Origin: Escherichia phage PJNS034
Reading direction: 5' to 3' (one strand)
Length of the DNA stretch: 64,000 nt
Sequence record: PP391266.1
Of the stretch, positions 4,423 to 58,938 are shown piece by piece (positions within the stretch are counted from its first letter, which is position 1; every line of letters begins with the position of its first letter). Both the position numbers and the translations under genes were made by a program. The notes under the pieces were generated by a model. It saw nothing but the letters and a program-made list of their open reading frames with translations, had not been told where the DNA came from and ran no database searches.

Positions 4423-4500
4423 CTTGATGTAGCTCAGTTTGGTAGCAGCACTTGCTTTGGGAGCAAGGGGTCGAAGGTTCGAATCCTTCCATCAAGACCA
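4423..4500 (+). tRNA. tRNA-Pro (anticodon TGG), CCA encoded
   Basis: Hand-folded cloverleaf: acceptor cttgatg/catcaag, anticodon stem cttgc/gcaag with loop tttggga, T-arm gaagg-ttcgaat-ccttc; D-stem only 3 bp. Confidence 0.7.
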
Positions 4501-4501
4501 A

Positions 4502-4583
4502 GTGGGATTGGCTGAGTGGTCGAAAGCACCTGACTGTAAATCAGGCATATCACGCGGTGGTTCGAATCCATCATCCCACACCA
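4502..4583 (+). tRNA. tRNA-Tyr (anticodon GTA), CCA encoded
   Basis: Acceptor gtgggat/atcccac, anticodon stem cctga/tcagg with loop ctgtaaa, extended variable region, T-arm ggtgg-ttcgaat-ccatc. Confidence 0.65.
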
Positions 4584-4585
4584 AA

Positions 4586-4662
4586 GCGTCACTAACTCAA
4601 TTGGTTAGAGTAGCGGTCTTTTAAACCGCAGGTTCTGAGTTCGAGTCTCAGGTGGCGTACCA
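4586..4662 (+). tRNA. tRNA-Lys (anticodon TTT), CCA encoded
   Basis: Acceptor gcgtcac/gtggcgt (two G-U pairs), D-arm actc...gagt, anticodon stem gcggt/accgc with loop cttttaa, T-arm ctgag-ttcgagt-ctcag. Confidence 0.8.
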
Positions 4663-4664
4663 AA

Positions 4665-4754
4665 GGAAGTTAGGGCTTTGTGGAAAGCAATCGGTCTTGA
4701 AAACCGACCCACTGTAGCGATATGGTGATGGTTCGACTCCATTAGCTTCCTCCA
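4665..4754 (+). tRNA. tRNA-Ser (anticodon TGA), type II, CCA encoded
   Basis: Acceptor ggaagtt/agcttcc, anticodon stem tcggt/accga with loop cttgaaa, long variable arm, T-loop ttcgact. Confidence 0.75.
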
Positions 4755-4756
4755 AT

Positions 4757-4833
4757 TGTTTCGTAGCTCAGTTGGTAAGAGCGTTCGGCTGATAACCGAA
4801 AGGTCACAAGTTCGAGTCTTGTCGAAACAACCA
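4757..4833 (+). tRNA. tRNA-Ile (anticodon GAT), CCA encoded
   Basis: Canonical cloverleaf: acceptor tgtttcg/cgaaaca, D-arm gctc-agttggtaa-gagc, anticodon stem ttcgg/ccgaa with loop ctgataa, T-arm acaag-ttcgagt-cttgt. Confidence 0.85.
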
Positions 4834-4836
4834 AAT

Positions 4837-4925
4837 GACGGGTTGGCAGAGTTGGTTTATTGCAGCAGCTTGCTAAGTTGCCGAGTCGAAAGGCTCCGTG
4901 GGTTCGAATCCCACACCCGACGCCA
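4837..4925 (+). tRNA. tRNA-Ser (anticodon GCT), type II, CCA encoded
   Basis: Anticodon stem gcagc/gttgc with loop ttgctaa, 16-nt variable arm, T-arm gtggg-ttcgaat-cccac; acceptor has one A-A mismatch as read. Confidence 0.6.
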
Positions 4926-4926
4926 A

Positions 4927-5002
4927 GGACGATAAGCACATGTGGATGTGCGGCAGGCTGTTAACCTGATGGCAGTTGGTTCGAATCCAACATCGTCCGC
5001 CA
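4927..5002 (+). tRNA. tRNA-Asn (anticodon GTT), CCA encoded
   Basis: Acceptor ggacgat/atcgtcc, D-arm gcac...gtgc, anticodon loop ctgttaa, T-arm gttgg-ttcgaat-ccaac. Confidence 0.75.
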
Positions 5003-5004
5003 AT

Positions 5005-5079
5005 AGCGAGATAGTTCAGTGGTAGAATATCGGTTTCATACGCCGACCGTCGATGGTTCGATTCCATCTCTCGCTACCA
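5005..5079 (+). tRNA. tRNA with CAT anticodon (elongator Met or Ile2 type), CCA encoded
   Basis: Acceptor agcgaga/tctcgct fully paired at 1:72 (not initiator-like), anticodon stem tcggt/gccga with loop ttcatac, T-arm gatgg-ttcgatt-ccatc. Confidence 0.75.
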
Positions 5080-5095
5080 AACCTCTTTATCCGAT

Positions 5096-5167
5096 GGGAG
5101 TGTCCTTCTGGGAAGGATGTGGATTCCAACCCCACTAAGTAGAGTTCGATTCTTTACACTCCCGCCA
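5096..5167 (+). tRNA. tRNA-like, possibly tRNA-Gly (anticodon TCC), CCA encoded
   Basis: Acceptor gggagtg/cactccc and T-arm tagag-ttcgatt-cttta fold well; D-loop very short and one mismatch in the anticodon stem. Confidence 0.45.
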
Positions 5168-5174
5168 AATCCCT

Positions 5175-5251
5175 AGCCTTGTAGTGTAGTCTGGTTAGCA
5201 CACGTGACTTTGACTCACGGAGCTTAGGTTCGAATCCTGACAGGGCTGCCA
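5175..5251 (+). tRNA. tRNA-Gln (anticodon TTG), CCA encoded
   Basis: Acceptor agccttg/cagggct, D-arm gtgt...gcac, anticodon stem cgtga/tcacg with loop ctttgac, T-arm ttagg-ttcgaat-cctga. Confidence 0.8.
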
Positions 5252-40748: not shown

Positions 40749-41204
40749 TTAGTTACTTTCTGGAACAGCAACAGTCAGCTTAATACCAGCCAACTTGTCT
40801 GCAATCATCTTGTCCAGCTCTTCAGCAGTCAGTTCTTCATCATTCTTAATGTCCACTTCAACAGAAGCAGCTTTAGGATAGACGATATCGACCAGCTTCA
40901 TAGCAGCCATCAGACGCTCTTTAGGAGTAGCTGTGGGGCTTTCCATCACATCAATGAGGTATTCATCAGGGCGAATACGAGCGTTTGCTATAGCGTCTAA
41001 CATTTGCTGTGTGAGCTTGTTACGGGAGCCTTTCTTACGACCGCGACCAAAATTATTGCCGGGTAAGAAGGTGTTTTTGACAAGATTTCGACCTTTCGAG
41101 CAGGGATGGCCTTCTTCACTGAAAAATTCAATGGTTTTGCCTTTATACTCGTCTCCTACGCTGAGATGAGAGTAATCATCCACATAAGTCTTTTCATTAG
41201 ACAT
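40749..41204 (-). CDS. terminase small subunit (putative)
   Basis: First gene of the leftward block, directly upstream of the large subunit; basic GRGRKKGSRNKLTQ segment. Confidence 0.5.
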   Translation of the reverse strand: MSNEKTYVDDYSHLSVGDEYKGKTIEFFSEEGHPCSKGRNLVKNTFLPGNNFGRGRKKGSRNKLTQQMLDAIANARIRPDEYLIDVMESPTATPKERLMAAMKLVDIVYPKAASVEVDIKNDEELTAEELDKMIADKLAGIKLTVAVPESN

Positions 41205-42072
41205 TCATGCCACCTAATAATGGGGTTAGTTGAAAGATACACTGTAAGATGGAACCATTCATGCCAGTTCATCTACATGCCATGTCATAAGTATACACTG
41301 ATAAGAGGCTATCATGCCACCTCATACATGCCAGTCCATACTTCTGTGGGGATATAGGTAAGAGATGCTACATCTTACACTACTTATACCTATTATTTCC
41401 CTTCGGAATATAATGTTTAGGGTACAGGAAGAAGTGCCATATGACAAGACTTATTTACCAATTGAATTACAAATTCAGTGAATTTATAAGTGTGAGATAA
41501 CAAAGTGTGGATATTGCTCACTTTTTAACCAGAAACGTAAATTTCACTTGAGCGGTATGTGGCATATCAGCTTTAGCATAATGTTCAAAAAGGGGGAACG
41601 GGTTCCGCTCATGTTCCGGCGTGTGAATGAGGCGTGTAGACTACCACTAGCCCCTACCCTGAGTCAATACCCTCACTGGTCTGATGAGTGTGACTGCTCA
41701 AGTAGTAACCGTGTGATGCCGTGTGATGAGTACCCATCGTGCATAGTTATTCATGATAATTTATTTTTGGATAGCCTGAATAAATAATAGCCAGTGACCC
41801 GTTAGAATCTGCGTGCGTGTCTGATACTGCCTGAGTTATACCTCCATAACGCCAACGTTTAAACGGTGTATTGATAACGGGTAACAAGCCAGCGACAAGT
41901 GAATAAATATTCCAAGAGATAGCATATCTAATCAATCTATCTTCTCTTTATTCCTTTTACAGTGTAATTCTTATTTGTTTATAAGTAATAATTCTCCTCG
42001 ACCTATTGACAATTACCGTCGAGTAAATTACGCGTGTGTTTCATTACGTCTTAAAGAAATGATTTGTTTGTT

Positions 42073-42100
42073 TTGCTATTGACTTTTTAACTCATTCGTT
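42073..42100 (+). promoter_or_regulatory. sigma70-type promoter (TTGACT-16-TAATAT)
   Basis: Hexamers read directly from sequence. Confidence 0.5.
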
Positions 42101-42161
42101 TAATATAGCTCCCCGTTGAAACGCAGAACATCGCGGAGTAAACAAGTTAATCACTAAGTGG

Positions 42162-42190
42162 TTGACTGAATCGGGTTAGTATGTTTTAAT
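42162..42190 (+). promoter_or_regulatory. sigma70-type promoter (TTGACT-17-TTTAAT)
   Basis: Hexamers read directly; followed by AACGCTCTTTAA leader motif. Confidence 0.4.
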
Positions 42191-42371
42191 GCTTACCGAT
42201 TCAAACGCTCTTTAAAAATGTGGTCTGTCTTTAGGTGGTGTTTAACATCATTACTACAAGGCGCTTAGTTAGTTATCTGGTTTTGATTCCTGTTTCATTA
42301 GTGATTCAGGCGGATTGATAAAGCATCTTCAATAAGTCTTTAACAGTTCGATACTTCGAAGAAATTAACGA

Positions 42372-42399
42372 TTGACAGCGTACTAGATTCCTGTAAGAT
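42372..42399 (+). promoter_or_regulatory. sigma70-type promoter (TTGACA-16-TAAGAT)
   Basis: Consensus -35; followed by AACGCTCTTTAA leader motif. Confidence 0.5.
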
Positions 42400-42517
42400 A
42401 GACCACGTTTTAACGCTCTTTAACAATATGAATCATTAACGCTTAAACGTTAGTTTAATCAGACGTTATCAAGTGAAGCTGAAAAGTAACACGATAACAA
42501 ATGATGAAAATAAACGG

Positions 42518-42545
42518 TTGACAGCGTGAAATGATTCGGTATAAT
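42518..42545 (+). promoter_or_regulatory. strong sigma70-type promoter (TTGACA-16-TATAAT)
   Basis: Both hexamers perfect consensus. Confidence 0.65.
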
Positions 42546-43026
42546 GAGCGCCATCGAATGACAGAACGTTGTCAGACGATAGCCGGATAAGTGGATAACT
42601 TATAACGGCAGTTCGATAAAGTAGTGTGGTAGCGGGTAGCGGTATGTAACACGGATAATCTACGGATTAACGGCTTATTTGTTGCTTGCTTAAAGCATAA
42701 AACGTCGGGCGGCACGATGGGAGAAGTGCATAAAATCAATTAGGCTCCCTGACTCTTTAACAATTAGGAAACTACGCACCACAATTAACGTTGGATAACG
42801 TAAAGAGTGGGTTAATTTAGGGTGATTCCCTGCGTAGGCTTGTCGAGCTGATAACAGCGGTATGTGATGGACGCTTATATACTCCCTCCATGATAGTGTA
42901 TGACTGATTCCACCTAGGCCAAAGTGAAAGGGCGATAACGAATAGCAAGTAACAATCTCGTTTGATATGGGCATTTAATAGTGAGTGTCCAGATTAAACG
43001 ATAAAACTGAATTGAGGATTAAACCT

Positions 43027-43608
43027 ATGTCTATCTTAATTGCTGACCTGATTCGTAACGCTGACGGTGTTAACTCTCTGGCTGACTCTATCCAGTCCGA
43101 AGGTAAAAAGCTGGATAACATGATTCATCTGGCGCTGGCTTCTGCTACTGTTCTGGTGCATGAGCATGGCGATGTTACCGTGTTAAACCGTGTCATTAAC
43201 AAGCTGTCTTCTGGTGTCCGTACCAATGCGGCTCGTGCTTTCGCTGAAACTTTCGCTCCGGTAACTTTCGATAAGAAAGCAAAAGAGTTCCGCTTCAACA
43301 AACACAAACGCAATGAAGCATTCATTGACAGTGAAGCGGCGAAAGAAATGTGTGAAACTGTCTGGACTAAATTCCGTCCTGAGCCTGAGTATAAGCCAAT
43401 GAATCTGGCTGACTCTTTCACTAAGCTGATTGACCGTGCCGCTAACGATATGGATAAGAACGACACCATTTCCGAAGCACAAATCGCTCTGCTGCGCTCT
43501 TTCCAAGAGCAATTGGTAACACTCCAGACCAAAGAAGCGGCTGAACGTGATGCGGCAAAGGCACAAGCTGCAATCGCTGACGCTCCGGCTGAGGAAGTAG
43601 CGGCATAA
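43027..43608 (+). CDS. first early protein (193 aa), function unknown
   Basis: First ORF downstream of the promoter cluster; ATG 43027 with GAGG upstream (ORF track starts at GTG 42985); followed by a hairpin. Confidence 0.5.
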   Translation: MSILIADLIRNADGVNSLADSIQSEGKKLDNMIHLALASATVLVHEHGDVTVLNRVINKLSSGVRTNAARAFAETFAPVTFDKKAKEFRFNKHKRNEAFIDSEAAKEMCETVWTKFRPEPEYKPMNLADSFTKLIDRAANDMDKNDTISEAQIALLRSFQEQLVTLQTKEAAERDAAKAQAAIADAPAEEVAA

Positions 43609-43632: not shown

Positions 43633-43670
43633 TAGCCCCTTGCATTGAATAAATGTGAGGGGCTTTTTGT
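43633..43670 (+). terminator. terminator-like hairpin after first early gene
   Basis: agcccct...aggggct stem with large loop, then tttttgttt. Confidence 0.4.
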
Positions 43671-43681
43671 TTATGTACTGA

Positions 43682-44003: not shown

Positions 44004-44264
44004 ATGGCTGCGGGATATTTAGGCGGTGATTGTGTACACGGTGAGATTCAAGCCGTTGTAGATAACGCCGTTGACTTTGCCCGTTCTCAATTGAATTGTG
44101 GCGAGTCAGAAATGTTTTGTCTTGAATGTGATGAAGAAATCCCACAAGCAAGGCGTGAGGTTGCGAAAGGCTGCAAGTATTGTATTACCTGCCAGTCTAA
44201 GCACGATAGAAAACAAGCCAGCCAATTCAACAGGCGAGGCAGTAAAGATAGTCAATTGAGGTAA
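44004..44264 (+). CDS. DksA/TraR-family C4 zinc-finger protein
   Basis: FCLECDEEIPQARREVAKGCKYCITC matches the C-x2-C...C-x2-C TraR/DksA zinc finger as recalled. Confidence 0.7.
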   Translation: MAAGYLGGDCVHGEIQAVVDNAVDFARSQLNCGESEMFCLECDEEIPQARREVAKGCKYCITCQSKHDRKQASQFNRRGSKDSQLR

Positions 44265-55261: not shown

Positions 55262-55477
55262 ATGAGCTGGAACGAACGAGAGTATCGTAAACCAAAGTTG
55301 GGCACTGTATGTGTCCACTTCGAACCTTCGTATAAGTCAACCTTTGGAAGTACGAAGAAGTTCCCTAACGCATCGTTCTACTTGAGTACGAACGGTGTAA
55401 TCATCATCCGTGATATGGATGGTGACAACATCTGTGCATACCCTGAAGGTGTGTGGCTGAATGTTGAAATGAAGTGA
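55262..55477 (+). CDS. hypothetical protein (71 aa)
   Basis: ORF-track ORF; followed by a clean terminator hairpin. Confidence 0.3.
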   Translation: MSWNEREYRKPKLGTVCVHFEPSYKSTFGSTKKFPNASFYLSTNGVIIIRDMDGDNICAYPEGVWLNVEMK

Positions 55478-55485
55478 TTAACTCA

Positions 55486-55508
55486 AGCCCTTCTTCGGGA
55501 GGGTTTTA
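55486..55508 (+). terminator. Rho-independent terminator (cassette copy 3)
   Basis: 8-bp stem agcccttc/ggagggtt with ttcg loop, then tttta; preceded by AACTCAAG. Confidence 0.55.
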
Positions 55509-55563
55509 TGGTAATCATTACCACAAACTATTGAAACTAACTATTGAACTTGAGGAAAGTATT

Positions 55564-57156
55564 ATGTGCGGAATCGTTGGAATTATGCGTGGCGTTATGA
55601 CTGAAGGTATGGTGGACATGTTTGAACAACTGCTGTATGCAGATGTGTTCCGTGGCCCGCACTCCACTGGCGTCTATCGTGTTAATAAAGATGGTCAATC
55701 AGGGTTGTATAAGGATGCAGTACCTGCGTCTTTATATCTTGGCTCGAAAGGCTGGGATGATTTACGTGGGAATCTGAATGGAACTGCTGGTCATCAGGCA
55801 CTGTCTCAAGTTTATGTTGGTCATAACCGTTGGGCAACTGTAGGTGCAGTTAACGCTGTGAACTCACATCCATTCAAGTGCGGTAACATCACGATGGTAC
55901 ACAATGGTACTGTTGCGAAGTGGCGTTTGAATGACCACCTGAAGTATGACGTTGATAGTCATGCGGTGTGTGCGATGTTGGATTCACATGGTCTGGCTGA
56001 AACTCTGAAAGTTCTGGATGGTAAGTTTACTCTGGTGTGGCATGACGCATCTGATAACACCATGAACTTTATCCGTAATGCAGAACGTCCTCTGCACATG
56101 GTTGAGTTCACTGATGGTGGTTGGGCGTTTGCATCAGAAGGTGAGATGTTAACGTGGATTAATGGTCGTCGTAAGACCCCGTTTGGTATTAAACGTGCTT
56201 TCGAACTGCCAGTTGGCTTCCATCATAAATTCCAGTTATCCGCGAGCAAAGTAGAGCTTGCGGAGGTCGTTAAGTACGAACTCCCAAAGTTCACCAGCTA
56301 CGCCAGCAACAGCACGTATTATCCAAACCGAAGCTCAGTCGCAAGCAGCAGCGCAAGCTCAACAAACTCAGAAAGCGCAACCGCTAGACGTGTGCGTCTG
56401 ATGAAAGAGTGGGGCATTGACGTTGGAGACCGCAAAGATGTAGAGAACATGATTGTGTCTCTGGATAACATCGCGTTCACAGCGTACTCAACCAATGCAG
56501 CATCAGGTCGTATTGATGCAGACGCATGGGGTTACGATGAAGCTGTTGATGCCTGTGATGCTGGTCATATGGAAATTGACTGTAAGCGTGGTGGTAAAAC
56601 TGAAGATGTTCAGGTAACAGTTTACGGTGTTGATACTGTTAAGTGGAAAGACAACTACTCTCAGGGCGACCGTCTGTACGGTAAGATTGACAGTGTGTTT
56701 GAATCCACTGAGCATGGCAAGACTCGTCTTCGTATCACTTTGAAACCACTGACTCTGTGTACTGAGTTGGCTGATGGCGTTGAAGCCTTTAATGAGAAAG
56801 TGTTCCCGCTCCTCATTAAGAAAGAGGCCGAAAAGGTTGATGCCGACAAAAGTAAATCAGATGTTGCAGGAAGCACTGGAAGCGCAGGAACTGCAACTGG
56901 TCAGGGAACTCAGTTATCGGTTGTAGTGGATAACACTGCAAAAAAGCCGGAAGGTACGGACTCATCAAGCGGCTCGCCGAACTTGTTCAACATGTCCGCA
57001 ATTCCAATGAGTCTTAAAGACTTGCGTGAAGACAAGCTGAGTTGTGCTTGGTGCGGAAATGCAATCCACGAACATAACTACGAAATGTCTGATATGTTCT
57101 TTAAATCTCACATCTGCCCAGATTGTGCCAAGGAGTTACCGGGTTATGGCGACTGA
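55564..57156 (+). CDS. class II (Ntn-type) glutamine amidotransferase-like protein with C-terminal zinc ribbon
   Basis: Begins MCGIVGI (Cys directly after Met, hallmark of N-terminal nucleophile amidotransferases); Ser-rich linker; C-terminal CAWCG...CPDC; start moved to internal ATG with GAGG upstream. Confidence 0.7.
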   Translation: MCGIVGIMRGVMTEGMVDMFEQLLYADVFRGPHSTGVYRVNKDGQSGLYKDAVPASLYLGSKGWDDLRGNLNGTAGHQALSQVYVGHNRWATVGAVNAVNSHPFKCGNITMVHNGTVAKWRLNDHLKYDVDSHAVCAMLDSHGLAETLKVLDGKFTLVWHDASDNTMNFIRNAERPLHMVEFTDGGWAFASEGEMLTWINGRRKTPFGIKRAFELPVGFHHKFQLSASKVELAEVVKYELPKFTSYASNSTYYPNRSSVASSSASSTNSESATARRVRLMKEWGIDVGDRKDVENMIVSLDNIAFTAYSTNAASGRIDADAWGYDEAVDACDAGHMEIDCKRGGKTEDVQVTVYGVDTVKWKDNYSQGDRLYGKIDSVFESTEHGKTRLRITLKPLTLCTELADGVEAFNEKVFPLLIKKEAEKVDADKSKSDVAGSTGSAGTATGQGTQLSVVVDNTAKKPEGTDSSSGSPNLFNMSAIPMSLKDLREDKLSCAWCGNAIHEHNYEMSDMFFKSHICPDCAKELPGYGD

Positions 57157-57439
57157 TAAAATTGTAATTCGTATGCCGAAAGACGACATTGAATGTGAGC
57201 GGAAATATCCGTTCACTTACTTCATGAATGCAGCGCTGCGTGGTATGCAGCGTCGCTACTCTGAACAAGCGTCGGCAAAGTTTGGTAGTGAAGTTGAGAT
57301 TCTATTCCCAACTGCATTATCAAAAATGATTCATGACCACATGGTCACTCTGTATCAACAGGAAGGATTCGAACTCGCTGAAGAAGATTTCGAAGACTCC
57401 GAACAATACCGCAAATATCTGAAACTAATTAAGGGCTAA
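57146..57439 (+). CDS. hypothetical protein (97 aa)
   Basis: ATG overlapping the amidotransferase stop; ORF-track frame. Confidence 0.35.
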   Translation: MATDKIVIRMPKDDIECERKYPFTYFMNAALRGMQRRYSEQASAKFGSEVEILFPTALSKMIHDHMVTLYQQEGFELAEEDFEDSEQYRKYLKLIKG

Positions 57440-57444
57440 AACAA

Positions 57445-58938
57445 ATGCTGCGTATCTTCAACTACAACAACGGTTCTCAAGGTCTGGGTGCTCTGCGTGA
57501 ACATGTAGAGCCATTGATTCGTGAGATGAATACTCATCGTGGTTTCCGTAACATTCGTCCGGTTATGGGTAGCGAGAATGGTTCTGCTCGTCTGTTTCAG
57601 GCGACTAACCGCTTCATTATGAACTGGGGTTCTTCGCAACCCCTGAACACTGATGAAAGCAACTTCGTTCTCAACAAACCGGAAGCTGTTGGTTTAGCAA
57701 CTCATAAACTCCGCTTCTTCCAACATGTTCACCAGTGGAACCAAGAGAAGATTGCTCAGGGTGTGAATGGCCTGACTGTTCCGATTCCTGAGTGGACAAC
57801 TTCTCGTGATGAAGCTCAGACTTGGGCAGGGCATGACCATCTGGTTTATGCCCGTCAACGTCTGCAAGGTCATAGCGGTGAAGGTATCGAAGTATACGGT
57901 ATCAATCAGGTTGTTGAACGTGCTCCACTGTACACCAAAGGCATCATCGGTGCTCGTCGTGAGTATCGTGTTCATGTCATTGCTGGTCAGGTGGCACTGG
58001 TTCAGTTGAAGAAACGCCGCAATGGTGGTGAGGCTGTGGGCAATGGTAATGACCATGTTCGTAACCTCGGCTCTGGTTGGGTGTATGCAGTAAGTGATGC
58101 TCGTCCATCACCAGTCGTATTGAGTGCAGCACAGAATGCAGTTCGTGCTCTGGGTCTGGACTTTGGTGCGGTAGACATTATCGCTAAAGGTCGTAAAGGT
58201 CAGGAGCGTGAGTGCTGGGTGTTGGAAGTTAACACTGCACCGGGTCAGCGTGGTGATACTACTGTGACGCTGTATGCTCGTGCTGTTGCATCGGCATATG
58301 CAATCTGGATGAATCGTGATAGCGTTGACGTCCGTGATTTAGGAGGTGTCAAAGCTGCATGGGAAACACTTCCTTGGCTGAACGATGAAACCTTCCTTGC
58401 TCTGATGCGTGATGAAGGTGCAGATGGTTCGGTACTTCTGCGTTCTCAGCGTGAAACTCAGGCAGCAGAGGCAGAAATGCCTAACACTGACGATGATGTG
58501 GCGGCAGATGAAAACTTTGCCCTTCCTGCTGATGAACTGACACCTGCTCGTGCAACCTCTGGTGCTCATGTAGTTCACACTGGTACTCGTTGGGTTGATG
58601 TAGAAGCAGCACCTCAAGTTCGTGCTGAGCCTGTACGTCGTCGTGACGGTGAGCCAATGCCGTTCAATGGTAATCCATTCGATGCACGTATTCGTCGTGA
58701 ACCTGCACCACGTCCTGCACCTGAACCGGTTGTAATGCCAGAACGTCGTGTCATGTTGTCTCGTCTGGGACAGAATGACCCACAGAACGAACAGTTCGTG
58801 GTATTCACATGGAACGGTCGTCGTGAAGTCGGTGTAGTCAATACTCGTCTGGGTGTTGTTTACATGGCTGGTAGCGAAGTTCAACTTCCACTGGCTCAGG
58901 TTGATTTGATTGCGGTAGTTGATACCGAAATTCGTTAA
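57445..58938 (+). CDS. ATP-grasp ligase (RimK-like) with ~200-aa C-terminal extension
   Basis: YRVHVIAG and GLDFGAVDII...VLEVNTAPG match the RimK/GshB-type ATP-grasp C-terminal motifs as recalled; C-terminal half Pro/Arg-rich, unassigned. Confidence 0.7.
   Translation: MLRIFNYNNGSQGLGALREHVEPLIREMNTHRGFRNIRPVMGSENGSARLFQATNRFIMNWGSSQPLNTDESNFVLNKPEAVGLATHKLRFFQHVHQWNQEKIAQGVNGLTVPIPEWTTSRDEAQTWAGHDHLVYARQRLQGHSGEGIEVYGINQVVERAPLYTKGIIGARREYRVHVIAGQVALVQLKKRRNGGEAVGNGNDHVRNLGSGWVYAVSDARPSPVVLSAAQNAVRALGLDFGAVDIIAKGRKGQERECWVLEVNTAPGQRGDTTVTLYARAVASAYAIWMNRDSVDVRDLGGVKAAWETLPWLNDETFLALMRDEGADGSVLLRSQRETQAAEAEMPNTDDDVAADENFALPADELTPARATSGAHVVHTGTRWVDVEAAPQVRAEPVRRRDGEPMPFNGNPFDARIRREPAPRPAPEPVVMPERRVMLSRLGQNDPQNEQFVVFTWNGRREVGVVNTRLGVVYMAGSEVQLPLAQVDLIAVVDTEIR

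What the first reader, a model, noticed from the sequence alone, without database searches (positions are those of the whole stretch)
42204..42764. Repeated AACGCTCTTTAA motif just downstream of early promoters
AACGCTCTTTAA(A/C)AAT occurs near 42204 and 42412, each a few nucleotides downstream of the predicted start sites of two promoters, and CTCTTTAACAAT recurs near 42753. A conserved initial transcribed sequence could be an operator, an RNA processing site or the 5' end of small regulatory RNAs.
Basis: seen in the sequence. Interest (0 to 1): 0.4.

Follow-up and report, generated by a model that had tools for sequence, protein, structure and literature searches.

The report
Ribosomal-type boxA sites in phage early leader
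The repeated motif is boxA, the RNA signal that bacterial ribosomal RNA operons, phage lambda and phage T7 carry to load host Nus factors onto RNA polymerase; here it sits after the early promoters of a new lytic phage, where it most likely keeps polymerase going through about 830 bases of untranslated, highly folded leader RNA.

Summary
AACGCTCTTTAA occurs at 42204 and 42412, and CTCTTTAACAAT at 42416 and 42753, all on the + strand.

Copies 1 and 2 match the published gamma-proteobacterial boxA consensus GYTCTTTAANA exactly, and they are the only exact matches in 64 kb. Copy 2 shares 13 bases with the E. coli rrn leader boxA and 15 with the T7 early-leader boxA. Copy 3 has A at the critical first G, so it is a doubtful, degenerate copy.

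The window is a lytic phage whose closest relative is Pantoea phage TacPo2. Thirteen phiEco32-like phages carry 3-5 boxA copies in their 1.9-kb noncoding early region. Across 15 loci, 57 copies lie on the transcribed strand and 1 on the other. Distances to the predicted promoters vary, which fits an RNA element and not an operator.

Best explanation: Nus-factor (NusB/S10) antitermination of the rrn type, without an N protein. This is inferred, not shown.

A side finding is more novel. Copy 1 abuts a covariation-supported structured RNA of about 190 nt (42218-42408). This RNA is shared only with phiEco32-like phages, is absent from Rfam, and is closed by a helix that starts right after boxA, much like an rRNA leader-trailer helix.

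Verdict: a new member of a known kind, of moderate interest.

The parts
42079..42106 (+). Promoter-like site P0 (TTGACT-16-TAATAT, 9/12), about 95 nt upstream of boxA-1
   Evidence: Consensus scan; prediction only.
42162..42190 (+). Promoter-like site P1 (TTGACT-17-TTTAAT with a TGn extended -10); predicted start near 42197
   Evidence: Read directly from the sequence. Conserved in TacPo2 as TTGACG-17-TTTAAT. Not listed by the scan because position 2 of the -10 is T.
42204..42219 (+). boxA copy 1 (AACGCTCTTTAAAAAT; core GCTCTTTAAAA at 42207-42217), exact match to GYTCTTTAANA
   Evidence: Consensus from PMC5725501. Predicted to be unpaired in the fold.
42218..42408 (+). Structured RNA cassette 1. 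The closing helix pairs 42218-42231 (ATGTGGTCTGTCTT) with 42395-42408 (AAGATAGACCACGT); five inner helices follow. Shared only with phiEco32-like phages.
   Evidence: 46 pairs, 97.2% paired, 12 pairs with compensatory changes against 5.5 in shuffles (0 of 500 reach 12) and 0-2 in slid controls; z-score -3.35. No Rfam match.
42372..42399 (+). Promoter-like site P2 (TTGACA-16-TAAGAT, 10/12) embedded in the 3' part of cassette 1; predicted start near 42406
   Evidence: Shares the 20-mer AAATWAACGRTTGACAGCGT with P3 (family D2). The equivalent position in kuraviruses is not promoter-like.
42412..42427 (+). boxA copy 2 (AACGCTCTTTAACAAT; core at 42415-42425), exact consensus match. Its 13-mer GCTCTTTAACAAT is identical to the E. 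coli rrnG leader and its 15-mer ACGCTCTTTAACAAT is identical to the T7 early leader.
   Evidence: A 31-nt block around it is identical in TacPo2.
42429..42538 (+). Cassette 2. The 5' strand TGAATCATT (42429-42437) pairs with AATGATTCG (42530-42538), which lies in the spacer of promoter P3.
   Evidence: The pairing is kept in TacPo2 (TGAATCATT/AATGATTCA) and in kuraviruses (TATGAATCAT(G)/(C)ATGATTCATA). Both strands are conserved, so there is little covariation; p_shuffle in the window is 0.09.
42518..42545 (+). Promoter-like site P3 (TTGACA-16-TATAAT, 12/12); predicted start near 42552
   Evidence: Conserved in TacPo2 (TTGACG-16-TATAAT).
42552..43026 (+). Untranslated, apparently highly structured leader of the first early gene
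   Evidence: No + strand ORF of 40 aa or more. 106 predicted pairs, 20 of them compensated between the window and TacPo2 (only two sequences, so the evidence is weak).
42752..42764 (+). boxA-like copy 3 (ACTCTTTAACAAT), with one mismatch to the consensus at the first G. It is followed by helix 42772-42778 (CTACGCA) / 42831-42837 (TGCGTAG).
   Evidence: Relatives have GTACTTTAACA (TacPo2) or ACTCTTTCACA (kuraviruses), never the canonical sequence. Mutation of the G1 equivalent (lambda boxA5) lowers NusB:NusE affinity about 60-fold (PMC2800207).
43027..43608 (+). First early gene (193 aa, phrog_1448, function unknown)
43634..43673 (+). Intrinsic-terminator-like hairpin (13 bp, 6 GC) with a T-run directly after the first early gene. 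Later early genes have no detected promoter of their own.
   Evidence: The stem and T-run are conserved in TacPo2 (L001 5955-5984).

Best explanation
Copies 1 and 2 are rrn-type boxA elements. When transcribed from the sigma-70 early promoters just upstream, the single-stranded RNA sequence GCUCUUUAA(A/C)AAU is bound by the host NusB-S10 (NusE) dimer. That dimer nucleates a Nus-factor complex (NusA, NusG, SuhB, possibly S4) on the elongating host RNA polymerase.

The modified polymerase resists Rho and pauses less. It can therefore traverse about 830 nt of untranslated leader (42197-43026) and continue into the early operon. No phage N protein is needed, as in rRNA operons and boxA-led CRISPR arrays.

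A second, inferred role follows from the anatomy. Because boxA stays tethered at the RNA exit channel, the 5' strand of the helix that begins 1-3 nt after each boxA is held ready to pair with its 3' partner when that emerges. This would promote folding, and perhaps RNase III excision, of the enclosed RNA cassettes in the manner of the rRNA leader-trailer helix.

What is shown: sequence identity, strand, position, conservation and RNA structure. What is inferred: Nus binding, antitermination and processing.
For: 1. Consensus match. Copies 1 and 2 match the published consensus GYTCTTTAANA exactly (PMC5725501) and are the only exact matches in 64 kb.

2. Identity to known boxA sites. The E. coli rrnG leader has TGCTCTTTAACAAT 38 nt after the P2 -10 and 140 nt before 16S; this sequence occurs about 7 times per genome in all 5426 E. 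coli genomes. T7 has GACGCTCTTTAACAATCTGG between promoter A3 and gene 0.3.

3. Conservation and strand. TacPo2 keeps copy 2 in a 31-nt identical block. Thirteen phiEco32-like loci carry 3-5 exact copies in their 1.9-kb noncoding early region, most of them downstream of a sigma-70-like promoter. Overall 57 copies are on the transcribed strand against 1 on the other. Positions -1 to +12 are conserved while the flanks vary.

4. Accessibility. Both copies are predicted to be unpaired, flanking a stable fold.

5. Need. The region has no + strand ORF of 40 aa or more between 41788 and 42984. Rho terminates untranslated RNA, and boxA counters this for rRNA and CRISPR arrays (PMC7665894). boxA is necessary and sufficient for rrnTAC formation (PMC10250234).

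6. Type. The sequence is of the high-affinity rrn type with UUU (Kd 5-8 nM), not the lambda nut type (Kd 80-90 nM) (PMC2800207).

7. Generality. In IMG/VR, 29 of 121 exact CGCTCTTTAACAAT sites have a promoter scoring 10/12 or better within 150 nt upstream, against 1-2 in control windows.

8. Helix after boxA. The closing helix of cassette 1 starts 1-3 nt after boxA and covaries across three sequence types. In rrn, boxC lies 18-19 nt after boxA and is the 5' strand of the leader-trailer helix.
Against: Nothing here demonstrates binding or antitermination.

The strongest promoter, P3 (12/12), is followed only by the degenerate copy 3. That copy has A at the G whose mutation in lambda boxA5 abolishes function. 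So the bulk of early transcripts may not be modified, or copy 3 works in some other way.

rrn-type complexes are known to act mainly on Rho-dependent termination (established knowledge). Read-through of the strong intrinsic terminator at 43634 is therefore not explained.

The leader is C-poor (C 17%, G 23%) and heavily structured. It may be a poor Rho substrate even without boxA.

The rrn boxC sequence is absent, and the region is not homologous to the host rrn leader.

The helix-after-boxA arrangement is not general among phage boxA sites: 10% against 9% in controls.
Confidence: 0.7

Rival explanations
1. Lambda-style nut sites. boxA works together with an adjacent boxB-like hairpin and an unrecognised phage-encoded N-like protein. 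This would give antitermination that also overrides intrinsic terminators such as the one at 43634.
For: A strong, conserved intrinsic terminator follows the first early gene, and no detectable promoter follows it. This is the layout in which lambda needs N. In kuraviruses, hairpin P2 of cassette 1 lies about 19 nt after boxA and always carries a GNRA tetraloop: GUAA, GUGA, GCGA, GGAA or GCAA. Most early ORFs have no known function. Copy 3 is a sub-consensus boxA, as lambda's own boxA is.
Against: In the window no local hairpin follows either boxA; the next bases are the 5' strand of a long-range helix. The window's P2 loop is UUUAA and TH34's is UAACAA, so the GNRA loop is not conserved across the family. 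There is no Pfam or PHROG hit to N-like proteins, although N is small and divergent, so this is weak evidence. The boxA is the high-affinity rrn type, which works without N.
Confidence: 0.1
2. The motif marks processing or stability determinants. Its role is to define the 5' edge of small RNAs cut out of the leader by RNase III or RNase E, independent of Nus factors.
For: Every copy is followed within 1-10 nt by the 5' strand of a helix: 14 bp for copy 1, 9 bp for copy 2 and 7 bp for copy 3. In TH34 a 21-bp helix after a boxA encloses a small ORF; that length suits RNase III. From my own knowledge (not checked here), the T7 boxA is followed by the R0.3 RNase III hairpin; the stem itself is visible.
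Against: The conserved bases are exactly those of the NusB/S10 site and are predicted to be single-stranded. RNase III recognises helices, not this sequence. The motif matches no known RNase E or RNase III determinant. This reading is compatible with the best explanation rather than exclusive of it.
Confidence: 0.1
3. A DNA operator. A phage or host DNA-binding protein recognises the motif at the early promoters to shut them off or activate them.
For: In the window copies 1 and 2 lie at about +7 to +22 of two predicted promoters, a position where repressors can block transcription.
Against: The motif has no dyad symmetry. Strand bias is 57 to 1. The distance to the -10 ranges from 14 to 144 nt in relatives. 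The identical sequence in rrn and T7 is known as an RNA site.
Confidence: 0.04
4. Chance recurrence, or a passive by-product of duplicated promoter modules, with no function of its own.
For: Count statistics in the window alone are only modestly significant, at p of about 0.02-0.05 by shuffling. P2 and P3 share a duplicated 20-mer.
Against: The flanks of copies 1 and 2 are unrelated, so only the 16-19 nt core is shared. The core is invariant in 38 distinct sequence contexts in 15 loci from two unrelated phage groups.
Confidence: 0.02

Closest known systems
[quoted passage not shown]
   Same: The 13-mer GCTCTTTAACAAT is identical. It lies shortly after tandem sigma-70 promoters and precedes long untranslated, structured RNA. 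It is followed by the 5' strand of a long-range helix that closes an RNA domain, the analogue of boxC and the leader-trailer helix. No N protein is evident.
   Different: There is no boxB hairpin upstream, and no boxC sequence at up to 2 mismatches. The helix starts 1-3 nt after boxA, against 18-19 nt in rrn. The region is not homologous to the host rrn leader. The cargo is a 190-nt RNA of unknown function plus an mRNA leader, not rRNA.
Phage T7 early leader (promoters A1, A2, A3, then boxA, then the R0.3 RNase III site, then gene 0.3)
   Same: Both are lytic phages with tandem strong host-type early promoters and an identical 15-mer ACGCTCTTTAACAAT in the untranslated leader before the first early gene. 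A hairpin follows the boxA. GATAA-type motifs are also visible in the T7 leader.
   Different: T7 has a single boxA after all three promoters, whereas here and in kuraviruses there is one per promoter. The leader here is 3-4 times longer and contains a discrete conserved structured RNA. The function of the T7 boxA has, to my knowledge, never been firmly established, and no paper on it was found in the library.
Lambda nutL/nutR (boxA + boxB + N protein)
   Same: Both are phage early-transcript boxA sites placed just downstream of early promoters, and a terminator follows the first early gene.
   Different: Lambda's boxA is the weaker CGCUCUUA type (Kd 80-90 nM against 5-8 nM for rrn). It needs a boxB hairpin and N. 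Neither was found here.
boxA upstream of CRISPR arrays and in the suhB 5' UTR (non-rRNA Nus targets)
   Same: A consensus boxA is placed ahead of long untranslated RNA to counter Rho (PMC7665894). The same consensus defines the site (PMC5725501).
   Different: Those are host loci with a single copy each. The suhB boxA represses its gene rather than promoting expression.
phiEco32-like phages (Gordonclarkvirinae) noncoding early region
   Same: They show the same promoter-boxA-helix cassette organisation. Cassette 1 is truly homologous at about 75% identity, with a shared structure.
   Different: The rest of the genomes are unrelated: only the 190-nt module and the boxA flanks match. No paper in the library mentions boxA in these phages. 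One paper says the antitermination strategy of the related phage 7-11 'remains to be defined' (PMC8948821).

Membership tests
boxA (NusB-NusE/S10 binding RNA element, gamma-proteobacterial type) | Matches the consensus GYTCTTTAANA | tested here: met
   Copies 1 (42207-42217) and 2 (42415-42425) match exactly. Copy 3 (42752-42762) fails at position 1, with A for G.
boxA (NusB-NusE/S10 binding RNA element, gamma-proteobacterial type) | Lies on the sense strand of a transcript, downstream of a promoter, in RNA that is not being translated | tested here: met
   Predicted sigma-70 promoters lie 15-16 nt upstream. There is no + strand ORF of 40 aa or more. Strand bias is 57:1 in 15 loci. Promoters are predictions; no transcript starts have been mapped.
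boxA (NusB-NusE/S10 binding RNA element, gamma-proteobacterial type) | Single-stranded in the nascent RNA | tested here: met
   Both copies are unpaired in the minimum-free-energy structure (the centroid pairs a few bases of copy 1) of 42204-42427, and they lie outside the consensus structure. This is prediction only.
boxA (NusB-NusE/S10 binding RNA element, gamma-proteobacterial type) | Core conserved in relatives while the flanks diverge | tested here: met
   The core GCTCTTTAA and the two A at +10 and +11 are invariant, with T at +12 in 33 of 38, in 38 distinct contexts; upstream positions vary (alignments).
boxA (NusB-NusE/S10 binding RNA element, gamma-proteobacterial type) | Binds NusB:NusE and confers Nus-dependent resistance to termination | not testable with these tools
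   Needs binding assays, ChIP, reporter fusions and nus mutant hosts.
Lambda-type nut site | A boxB hairpin (about 5 bp, GNRA-like pentaloop) a few nt 3' of boxA | tested here: not met
   In the window the bases after boxA form a long-range helix, not a local hairpin. The nearest hairpin (P2) has loop UUUAA in the window and GNRA only in kuraviruses.
Lambda-type nut site | Phage-encoded N-like arginine-rich antiterminator among the early genes | tested here: inconclusive
   There is no Pfam or PHROG hit to N. N proteins are short and divergent, so absence of a hit is weak evidence.
rrn leader antitermination region (boxB-boxA-boxC with leader-trailer helix) | boxC (UCUGUGUGGG) 18-19 nt downstream of boxA | tested here: not met
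   There is no match with up to 2 mismatches anywhere in 42196-43026.
rrn leader antitermination region (boxB-boxA-boxC with leader-trailer helix) | A sequence just after boxA forms the 5' strand of a covarying long-range helix that encloses a structured RNA | tested here: met
   Helix 1 of cassette 1 has 14 pairs, 5 of them with compensatory changes, and 98.7% of cells paired. It starts 1-3 nt after boxA.
rrn leader antitermination region (boxB-boxA-boxC with leader-trailer helix) | Homology to the host rrn leader (that is, captured host DNA) | tested here: not met
   blastn of 42150-42800 against 5426 E. coli genomes found no match at E<=1.
Any curated RNA family (Rfam 15), for cassette 1 and the leader | Covariance-model match | tested here: not met
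   There were no non-tRNA hits at gathering score in the window. Only chance-level hits appeared at E<=10 in 41900-43100.

The most novel reading that the evidence does not exclude
The boxA copies are the punctuation of an rrn-like 'RNA operon' in lytic phages. Each cassette consists of a promoter, a boxA, the 5' strand of a helix, a cargo and the 3' strand of the helix. Host Nus-modified polymerase is used both to avoid termination and to chaperone, and possibly release, structured noncoding RNAs very early in infection.

Cassette 1 (42218-42408) would then be a new, functional phage ncRNA family. It has GNRA and UNCG loops and a multi-helix junction. It appears to have moved horizontally between unrelated phages by recombination at the boxA repeats: it is present here and in Gordonclarkvirinae but absent from the closest relative, TacPo2. 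Candidate roles are a decoy or anti-defence RNA, or a regulator of host RNA polymerase or translation.
Probability: 0.35. Interest if true: 0.65.

Novelty: new member of a known kind. Interest (0 to 1): 0.45.

Why it matters
boxA is textbook biology for rRNA operons and lambda, but its use by strictly lytic phages has hardly been examined.

This result gives a concrete, testable answer to how this phage and the phiEco32-like phages get host polymerase through 0.8-1.6 kb of untranslated early leader. One paper on the related phage 7-11 states that its antitermination strategy is undefined (PMC8948821).

It predicts that these phages depend on host NusB, S10 and SuhB, which could be a host-range or resistance determinant.

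It also uncovers a covariation-supported structured RNA that is absent from Rfam, is transcribed first in infection, and is shared across unrelated phages. That RNA is a good candidate for a new functional phage RNA, and a natural system in which the 'boxA tether helps long-range helix formation' model of the rrn complex could be tested on a 190-nt RNA instead of 16S rRNA.

Tried and rejected
- **Host origin.** blastn of 42150-42800 against all complete E. coli genomes found nothing. The region is not captured rrn DNA.
- **Rfam.** There was nothing at gathering score and only chance-level hits at E<=10.
- **More homologues of cassette 1.** Pattern scans of IMG/VR and the metagenome collection returned only kuravirus-type contigs. 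A covariance model (R1) found no further homologue in the window or in 100 boxA-bearing viral loci. L022 and L042 share only the architecture.
- **Helix after boxA as a general rule.** I tested whether a long-range helix directly after boxA is general in phages. It is not: 10% of noncoding IMG/VR sites against 9% of in-ORF controls at p<=0.05. I therefore restrict that claim to this lineage.
- **Relatives through the first early protein.** The IMG/VR search found none. The first early proteins of the window and of phiEco32 are not detectably homologous by BLASTP.
- **N-like antiterminator.** There were no Pfam or PHROG hits.
- **rrn boxC.** It is absent.
- **Small ORF inside cassette 1.** The only candidate is the 27-aa GTG ORF at 42235-42318. 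I rejected it because the conservation pattern is compensatory base pairing, not codon-like.
- **Complementarity to the start of gene 1.** There is a 10-bp perfect complement between 42394-42403 and 43029-43038 (pair I1). It is about what chance gives in 1.9 kb and is not conserved in TacPo2 or kuraviruses, so I rejected it.
- **Copy 3 pairing with the Shine-Dalgarno region.** This pairing is predicted. It has 6 bp with 2 G-U pairs and no covariation, so I kept it only as a remark.
- **Literature.** I found no paper linking phiEco32 and boxA, none on the T7 boxA, and none on a phiEco32 noncoding RNA (one search was a badly posed query). The Pavlova 2012 paper on the phiEco32 transcription programme is not held.
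Full report
**Observation.** AACGCTCTTTAA occurs exactly at 42204-42215 and 42412-42423. CTCTTTAACAAT occurs exactly at 42416-42427 and 42753-42764, and with one mismatch at 42208-42219. All copies are on the + strand.

Shuffling gives only a modest excess by count: 2 matches against 0.34 expected, and 3 against 0.44. However, the copies share one strand and one ORF-free region. Apart from a 16-19 nt core, the flanks of copies 1 and 2 are unrelated.

**Genomic setting.** The window is a lytic tailed phage. Its minus-strand genes from 12.3 to 41.2 kb are structural (large terminase, portal, tail proteins). Its plus-strand genes from 43027 onward are early and replication genes (DksA/TraR-type zinc finger, primase-helicase, DNA polymerase).

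The finding lies in the 1.8-kb divergent noncoding region between these two blocks. The only close relative in 50,697 phage records is Pantoea phage TacPo2, at about 79% identity over this region.

Predicted sigma-70 promoters point rightward:
- P0, TTGACT-16-TAATAT at 42079.
- P1, TTGACT-17-TTTAAT with an extended -10 at 42162. This one was read by eye, is conserved in TacPo2, and was not listed by the scan.
- P2, TTGACA-16-TAAGAT at 42372.
- P3, a perfect TTGACA-16-TATAAT at 42518.

Copies 1 and 2 begin about 7-8 nt after the predicted starts of P1 and P2. Copy 3 lies about 200 nt after the predicted start of P3. The first start codon is at 43027, so transcripts from P1 carry about 830 nt of untranslated RNA. 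No transcript starts have been mapped.

**What the motif is.** I recalled GCTCTTTAACAAT as the boxA of rRNA operon leaders and then tested that recollection.
- The published gamma-proteobacterial boxA consensus is GYTCTTTAANA (Baniulyte et al. 2017, PMC5725501). Copies 1 and 2 match it exactly and are the only exact matches on either strand of the 64-kb window. Copy 3 (ACTCTTTAACA) misses at position 1.
In the example fetched it lies between clpB and a 16S gene. There TGCTCTTTAACAAT sits 38 nt after the P2 -10 and 140 nt before 16S.
- Phage T7 carries GACGCTCTTTAACAATCTGG between its annotated host-type promoter A3 and gene 0.3.

Copy 2 therefore shares 13 contiguous bases with the rrn boxA and 15 with the T7 sequence.

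**Conservation.** A distant search with the window's noncoding region unexpectedly hit the noncoding early region of 43 phiEco32-like podophages (Gordonclarkvirinae).

In thirteen such loci that I fetched, a noncoding stretch of about 1.9 kb holds 3-5 exact boxA consensus copies. Most lie downstream of a sigma-70-like promoter, at 14 to 144 nt from the -10. [quoted passage not shown]

Across the window, TacPo2 and these loci there are 57 consensus copies on the transcribed strand and one on the other strand; that one lies inside a TacPo2 gene. In 38 distinct sequence contexts the core and the next two or three bases, (C)GCTCTTTAA(A/C)AA(T), are conserved while upstream positions vary.

Extreme strand bias, lack of symmetry and variable distance to promoters argue for an RNA element and against an operator.

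More broadly, the exact 14-mer CGCTCTTTAACAAT occurs in at least 120 IMG/VR contigs. That number alone is about what chance would give. However, 29 of 121 sites have a promoter scoring 10/12 or better within 150 nt upstream, against 1-2 in control windows. So a promoter followed by an rrn-type boxA is a recurrent phage arrangement. T7-like contigs, where the site lies about 750-800 nt from the contig end, are among them.

**Mechanism proposed.** From the literature:
- NusB-S10 binds single-stranded boxA.
- boxA is necessary and sufficient for formation of the rrn antitermination complex with NusA, NusG, SuhB and S4.
- That complex resists Rho (PMC10250234; PMC7665894).
- rrn-type boxA binds NusB:NusE at 5-8 nM, against 80-90 nM for lambda nut boxA, which needs N (PMC2800207).

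The phage copies are of the rrn type. They are predicted to be unpaired. They precede long untranslated RNA. No boxB-like hairpin or N-like protein accompanies them.

I therefore propose N-independent, Nus-factor antitermination of the early leader. This step is inferred, not shown.

**The third copy.** Copy 3 has A in place of the first G. The lambda boxA5 mutation at the equivalent G raises the NusB:NusE Kd from about 90 nM to about 5200 nM and blocks N function.

The equivalent site is GTACTTTAACA in TacPo2 (one mismatch, at position 3) and ACTCTTTCACA in kuraviruses. So this site is conserved as a near-consensus boxA but is never canonical. I treat it as a doubtful or weak boxA.

This is also the main weakness of the model. 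The strongest promoter, P3, is followed only by this copy. A second gap is the conserved intrinsic terminator right after the first early gene (43634-43673). By established knowledge, rrn-type complexes are not known to override intrinsic terminators efficiently.

**What follows each boxA.**

*Cassette 1 is a shared, structured RNA.* The 190 nt after copy 1 (42218-42408) are about 75% identical to a kuravirus module that also starts at a boxA. TacPo2 lacks this module. Divergent versions occur in phages TH34 and Bas88.

An 11-sequence alignment gives a consensus fold of 46 pairs in six helices:
- 97.2% of cells are paired.
- 12 pairs carry compensatory double changes. Column shuffles give 5.5 +/- 1.5, and 0 of 500 reach 12. 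Controls with partners slid by 1-3 columns give 0-2.

*The closing helix covaries.* It starts 1-3 nt after boxA and is kept with three different sequences:
- window: TGGTCTGTCTT / AAGATAGACCA
- kuravirus: TGATTTGTCTT / AAGACAAATCA
- TH34: CAAGGTTTGCTT / AAGGCAAACTTTG

*Other signs of a real structured RNA.* One hairpin loop is always GNRA in kuraviruses, and another is UACG or UGCG. TH34 lacks the tip of one helix but keeps its base through an A-U to C-G change. G-U pairs occur only when the + strand is read. The window sequence alone folds the same way, with a z-score of -3.35 and both flanking boxA copies unpaired.

*The RNA is not a known family.* It is not in Rfam and not in E. coli genomes. 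It was found nowhere else in IMG/VR, in the metagenome collection, or among 100 boxA-bearing viral loci.

*Copies 2 and 3 are also followed by helices.* Copy 2 is followed by TGAATCATT, which pairs with AATGATTCG in the spacer of P3. This pairing is also present in TacPo2 and kuraviruses, but both strands are conserved, so there is little covariation. Copy 3 is followed by CTACGCA/TGCGTAG, which is compensated in TacPo2 as CTAGAC/GTCTAG. In TH34 one boxA is followed by a 21-bp helix that encloses a small ORF.

*Parallel with rrn.* In rrn, boxC lies 18-19 nt after boxA and is the 5' strand of the leader-trailer helix. The current model is that boxA tethered to NusB holds that strand near the RNA exit channel until the trailer emerges (PMC10250234).

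I could not generalise the arrangement. Among IMG/VR boxA sites a helix directly after boxA is no more frequent than in controls. Individual contigs do show it, for example L022 and L126 with 18-19 bp.

**Comparison and novelty.** As a sequence element, this is boxA: a new member of a known kind.

The closest functional analogues are the rrn leader and the T7 early leader. It fails the tests for a lambda-type nut site (no boxB, no N found). It also fails two rrn tests: no boxC sequence and no homology to the host rrn leader.

I found no paper in the searchable library that mentions boxA in phiEco32-like phages. A 2022 paper on the related phage 7-11 says its antitermination strategy 'remains to be defined' (PMC8948821). 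That Dunn and Studier noted the T7 boxA is my recollection and was not verified here.

The boxA-flanked structured RNA is the more novel part. Its function is unknown. The most interesting reading the evidence allows is an rrn-style cassette for making an early phage noncoding RNA.

**Verdict.**
- Best explanation: Nus-factor boxA antitermination of a long untranslated early leader, confidence about 0.7.
- Interest: 0.45.

Noticed in passing
window 42317-43004 (+): GATAA occurs 10 times on the + strand of the early leader, against 1.6 expected from its density in the window, while the reverse form TTATC occurs only twice. Four copies are GGATAA, and one (AGTGGATAA at 42590) is 8/9 of a DnaA box. 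By eye, similar GGATAAG, TGATAAG and GGATAAC motifs sit in the T7 A1-A3 leader (L004 200-515) and in the phiEco32 leader. The meaning is unknown (an RNA-binding protein site? CsrA-like GGA motifs?).
   Followed up: partly
window 41202-41340: Iteron-like direct repeats CAT(T/A)CATGCCA(N)5CAT occur at least 4-6 times with spacings of about 54, 53 and 14 nt. They lie in the left half of the same noncoding region, next to the leftward structural operon. Similar repeats are present in TacPo2 (L001 3760-3860). They could be a replication origin or a late-regulator binding array.
   Followed up: no
window 42552-43026; L001 4880-5339: The whole leader between P3 and the first start codon looks structured. 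RNAalifold on the window plus TacPo2 gives 106 pairs, 20 of them with compensatory changes. These include hairpins whose stems differ completely between the two phages (for example GCAC/GTGC against CTGG/CCAG). With only two sequences the evidence is weak.
   Followed up: partly
window 43634-43673; L001 5955-5984: A strong intrinsic-terminator-like hairpin (13 bp, then TTTTTGTTTAT) lies immediately after the first early gene. Its stem is conserved in TacPo2 while its loop differs. No promoter was detected before the next genes, so downstream early genes appear to depend on read-through.
   Followed up: partly
window 44004-44264 (+): An early gene encodes an 86-aa DksA/TraR-type C4 zinc-finger protein (Pfam PF01258, phrog_54). 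It is a possible binder of the RNA polymerase secondary channel, and the phage may use it to reprogramme host transcription.
   Followed up: no
window 4423-5251 (+): A tight cluster of 10 tRNA genes (Pro, Tyr, Lys, Ser, Ile, Ser, Asn, Met, Trp, Gln).
   Followed up: no
L016 (phage TH34) 1886-2204; L017 likewise: In TH34 and Bas88 a boxA is followed by a 21-bp long-range helix (TTCGATTAGTGTATCTTGATA / TATCAAGATGCATTAATCGAA) that encloses a small ORF of about 66 codons. It looks like an RNase III-bounded gene cassette inserted between promoter-boxA units.
   Followed up: partly
L022 3774-3987 (-), L126, L042 2973-3179 (+): Unrelated IMG/VR viral contigs show the same architecture with different sequences: a boxA, then within 1-3 nt the 5' strand of a 10-19 bp helix whose partner lies about 200-300 nt downstream. 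The enclosed RNA is not homologous to cassette 1.
   Followed up: partly
window 42362-42381 and 42508-42527: Promoters P2 and P3 share the 20-mer AAAT(T/A)AACG(A/G)TTGACAGCGT, which covers the -35 and the upstream A-rich stretch. This suggests promoter duplication. In kuraviruses the position equivalent to P2 is part of the structured RNA and is not promoter-like.
   Followed up: partly
window vs L001 (TacPo2), 42190-42430 vs 4650-4710: TacPo2 looks like the window minus the segment from boxA-1 through cassette 1 and P2, as if cassettes are gained or lost by recombination at the boxA repeats. Cassette 1 is shared with otherwise unrelated Gordonclarkvirinae.
   Followed up: partly
window 55474-58938 (+): The phage encodes a glutamine-fructose-6-phosphate aminotransferase-like protein (560 aa) and a protein matching a PHROG family (phrog_2599) annotated 'ribosomal protein S6 glutaminyl transferase' (497 aa). 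These are unusual auxiliary genes.
   Followed up: no
IMG/VR boxA sites (loci L020-L139): Many phage boxA copies continue as AAT-N-TGG (for example AATCTGG, AATATGGATTAG, AATTTGG), a 3' extension that the E. coli rrn leader lacks (AATTTATCAG). The window's copy 1 (AAATGTGG) fits it loosely. This may be a phage-specific extended boxA context.
   Followed up: no
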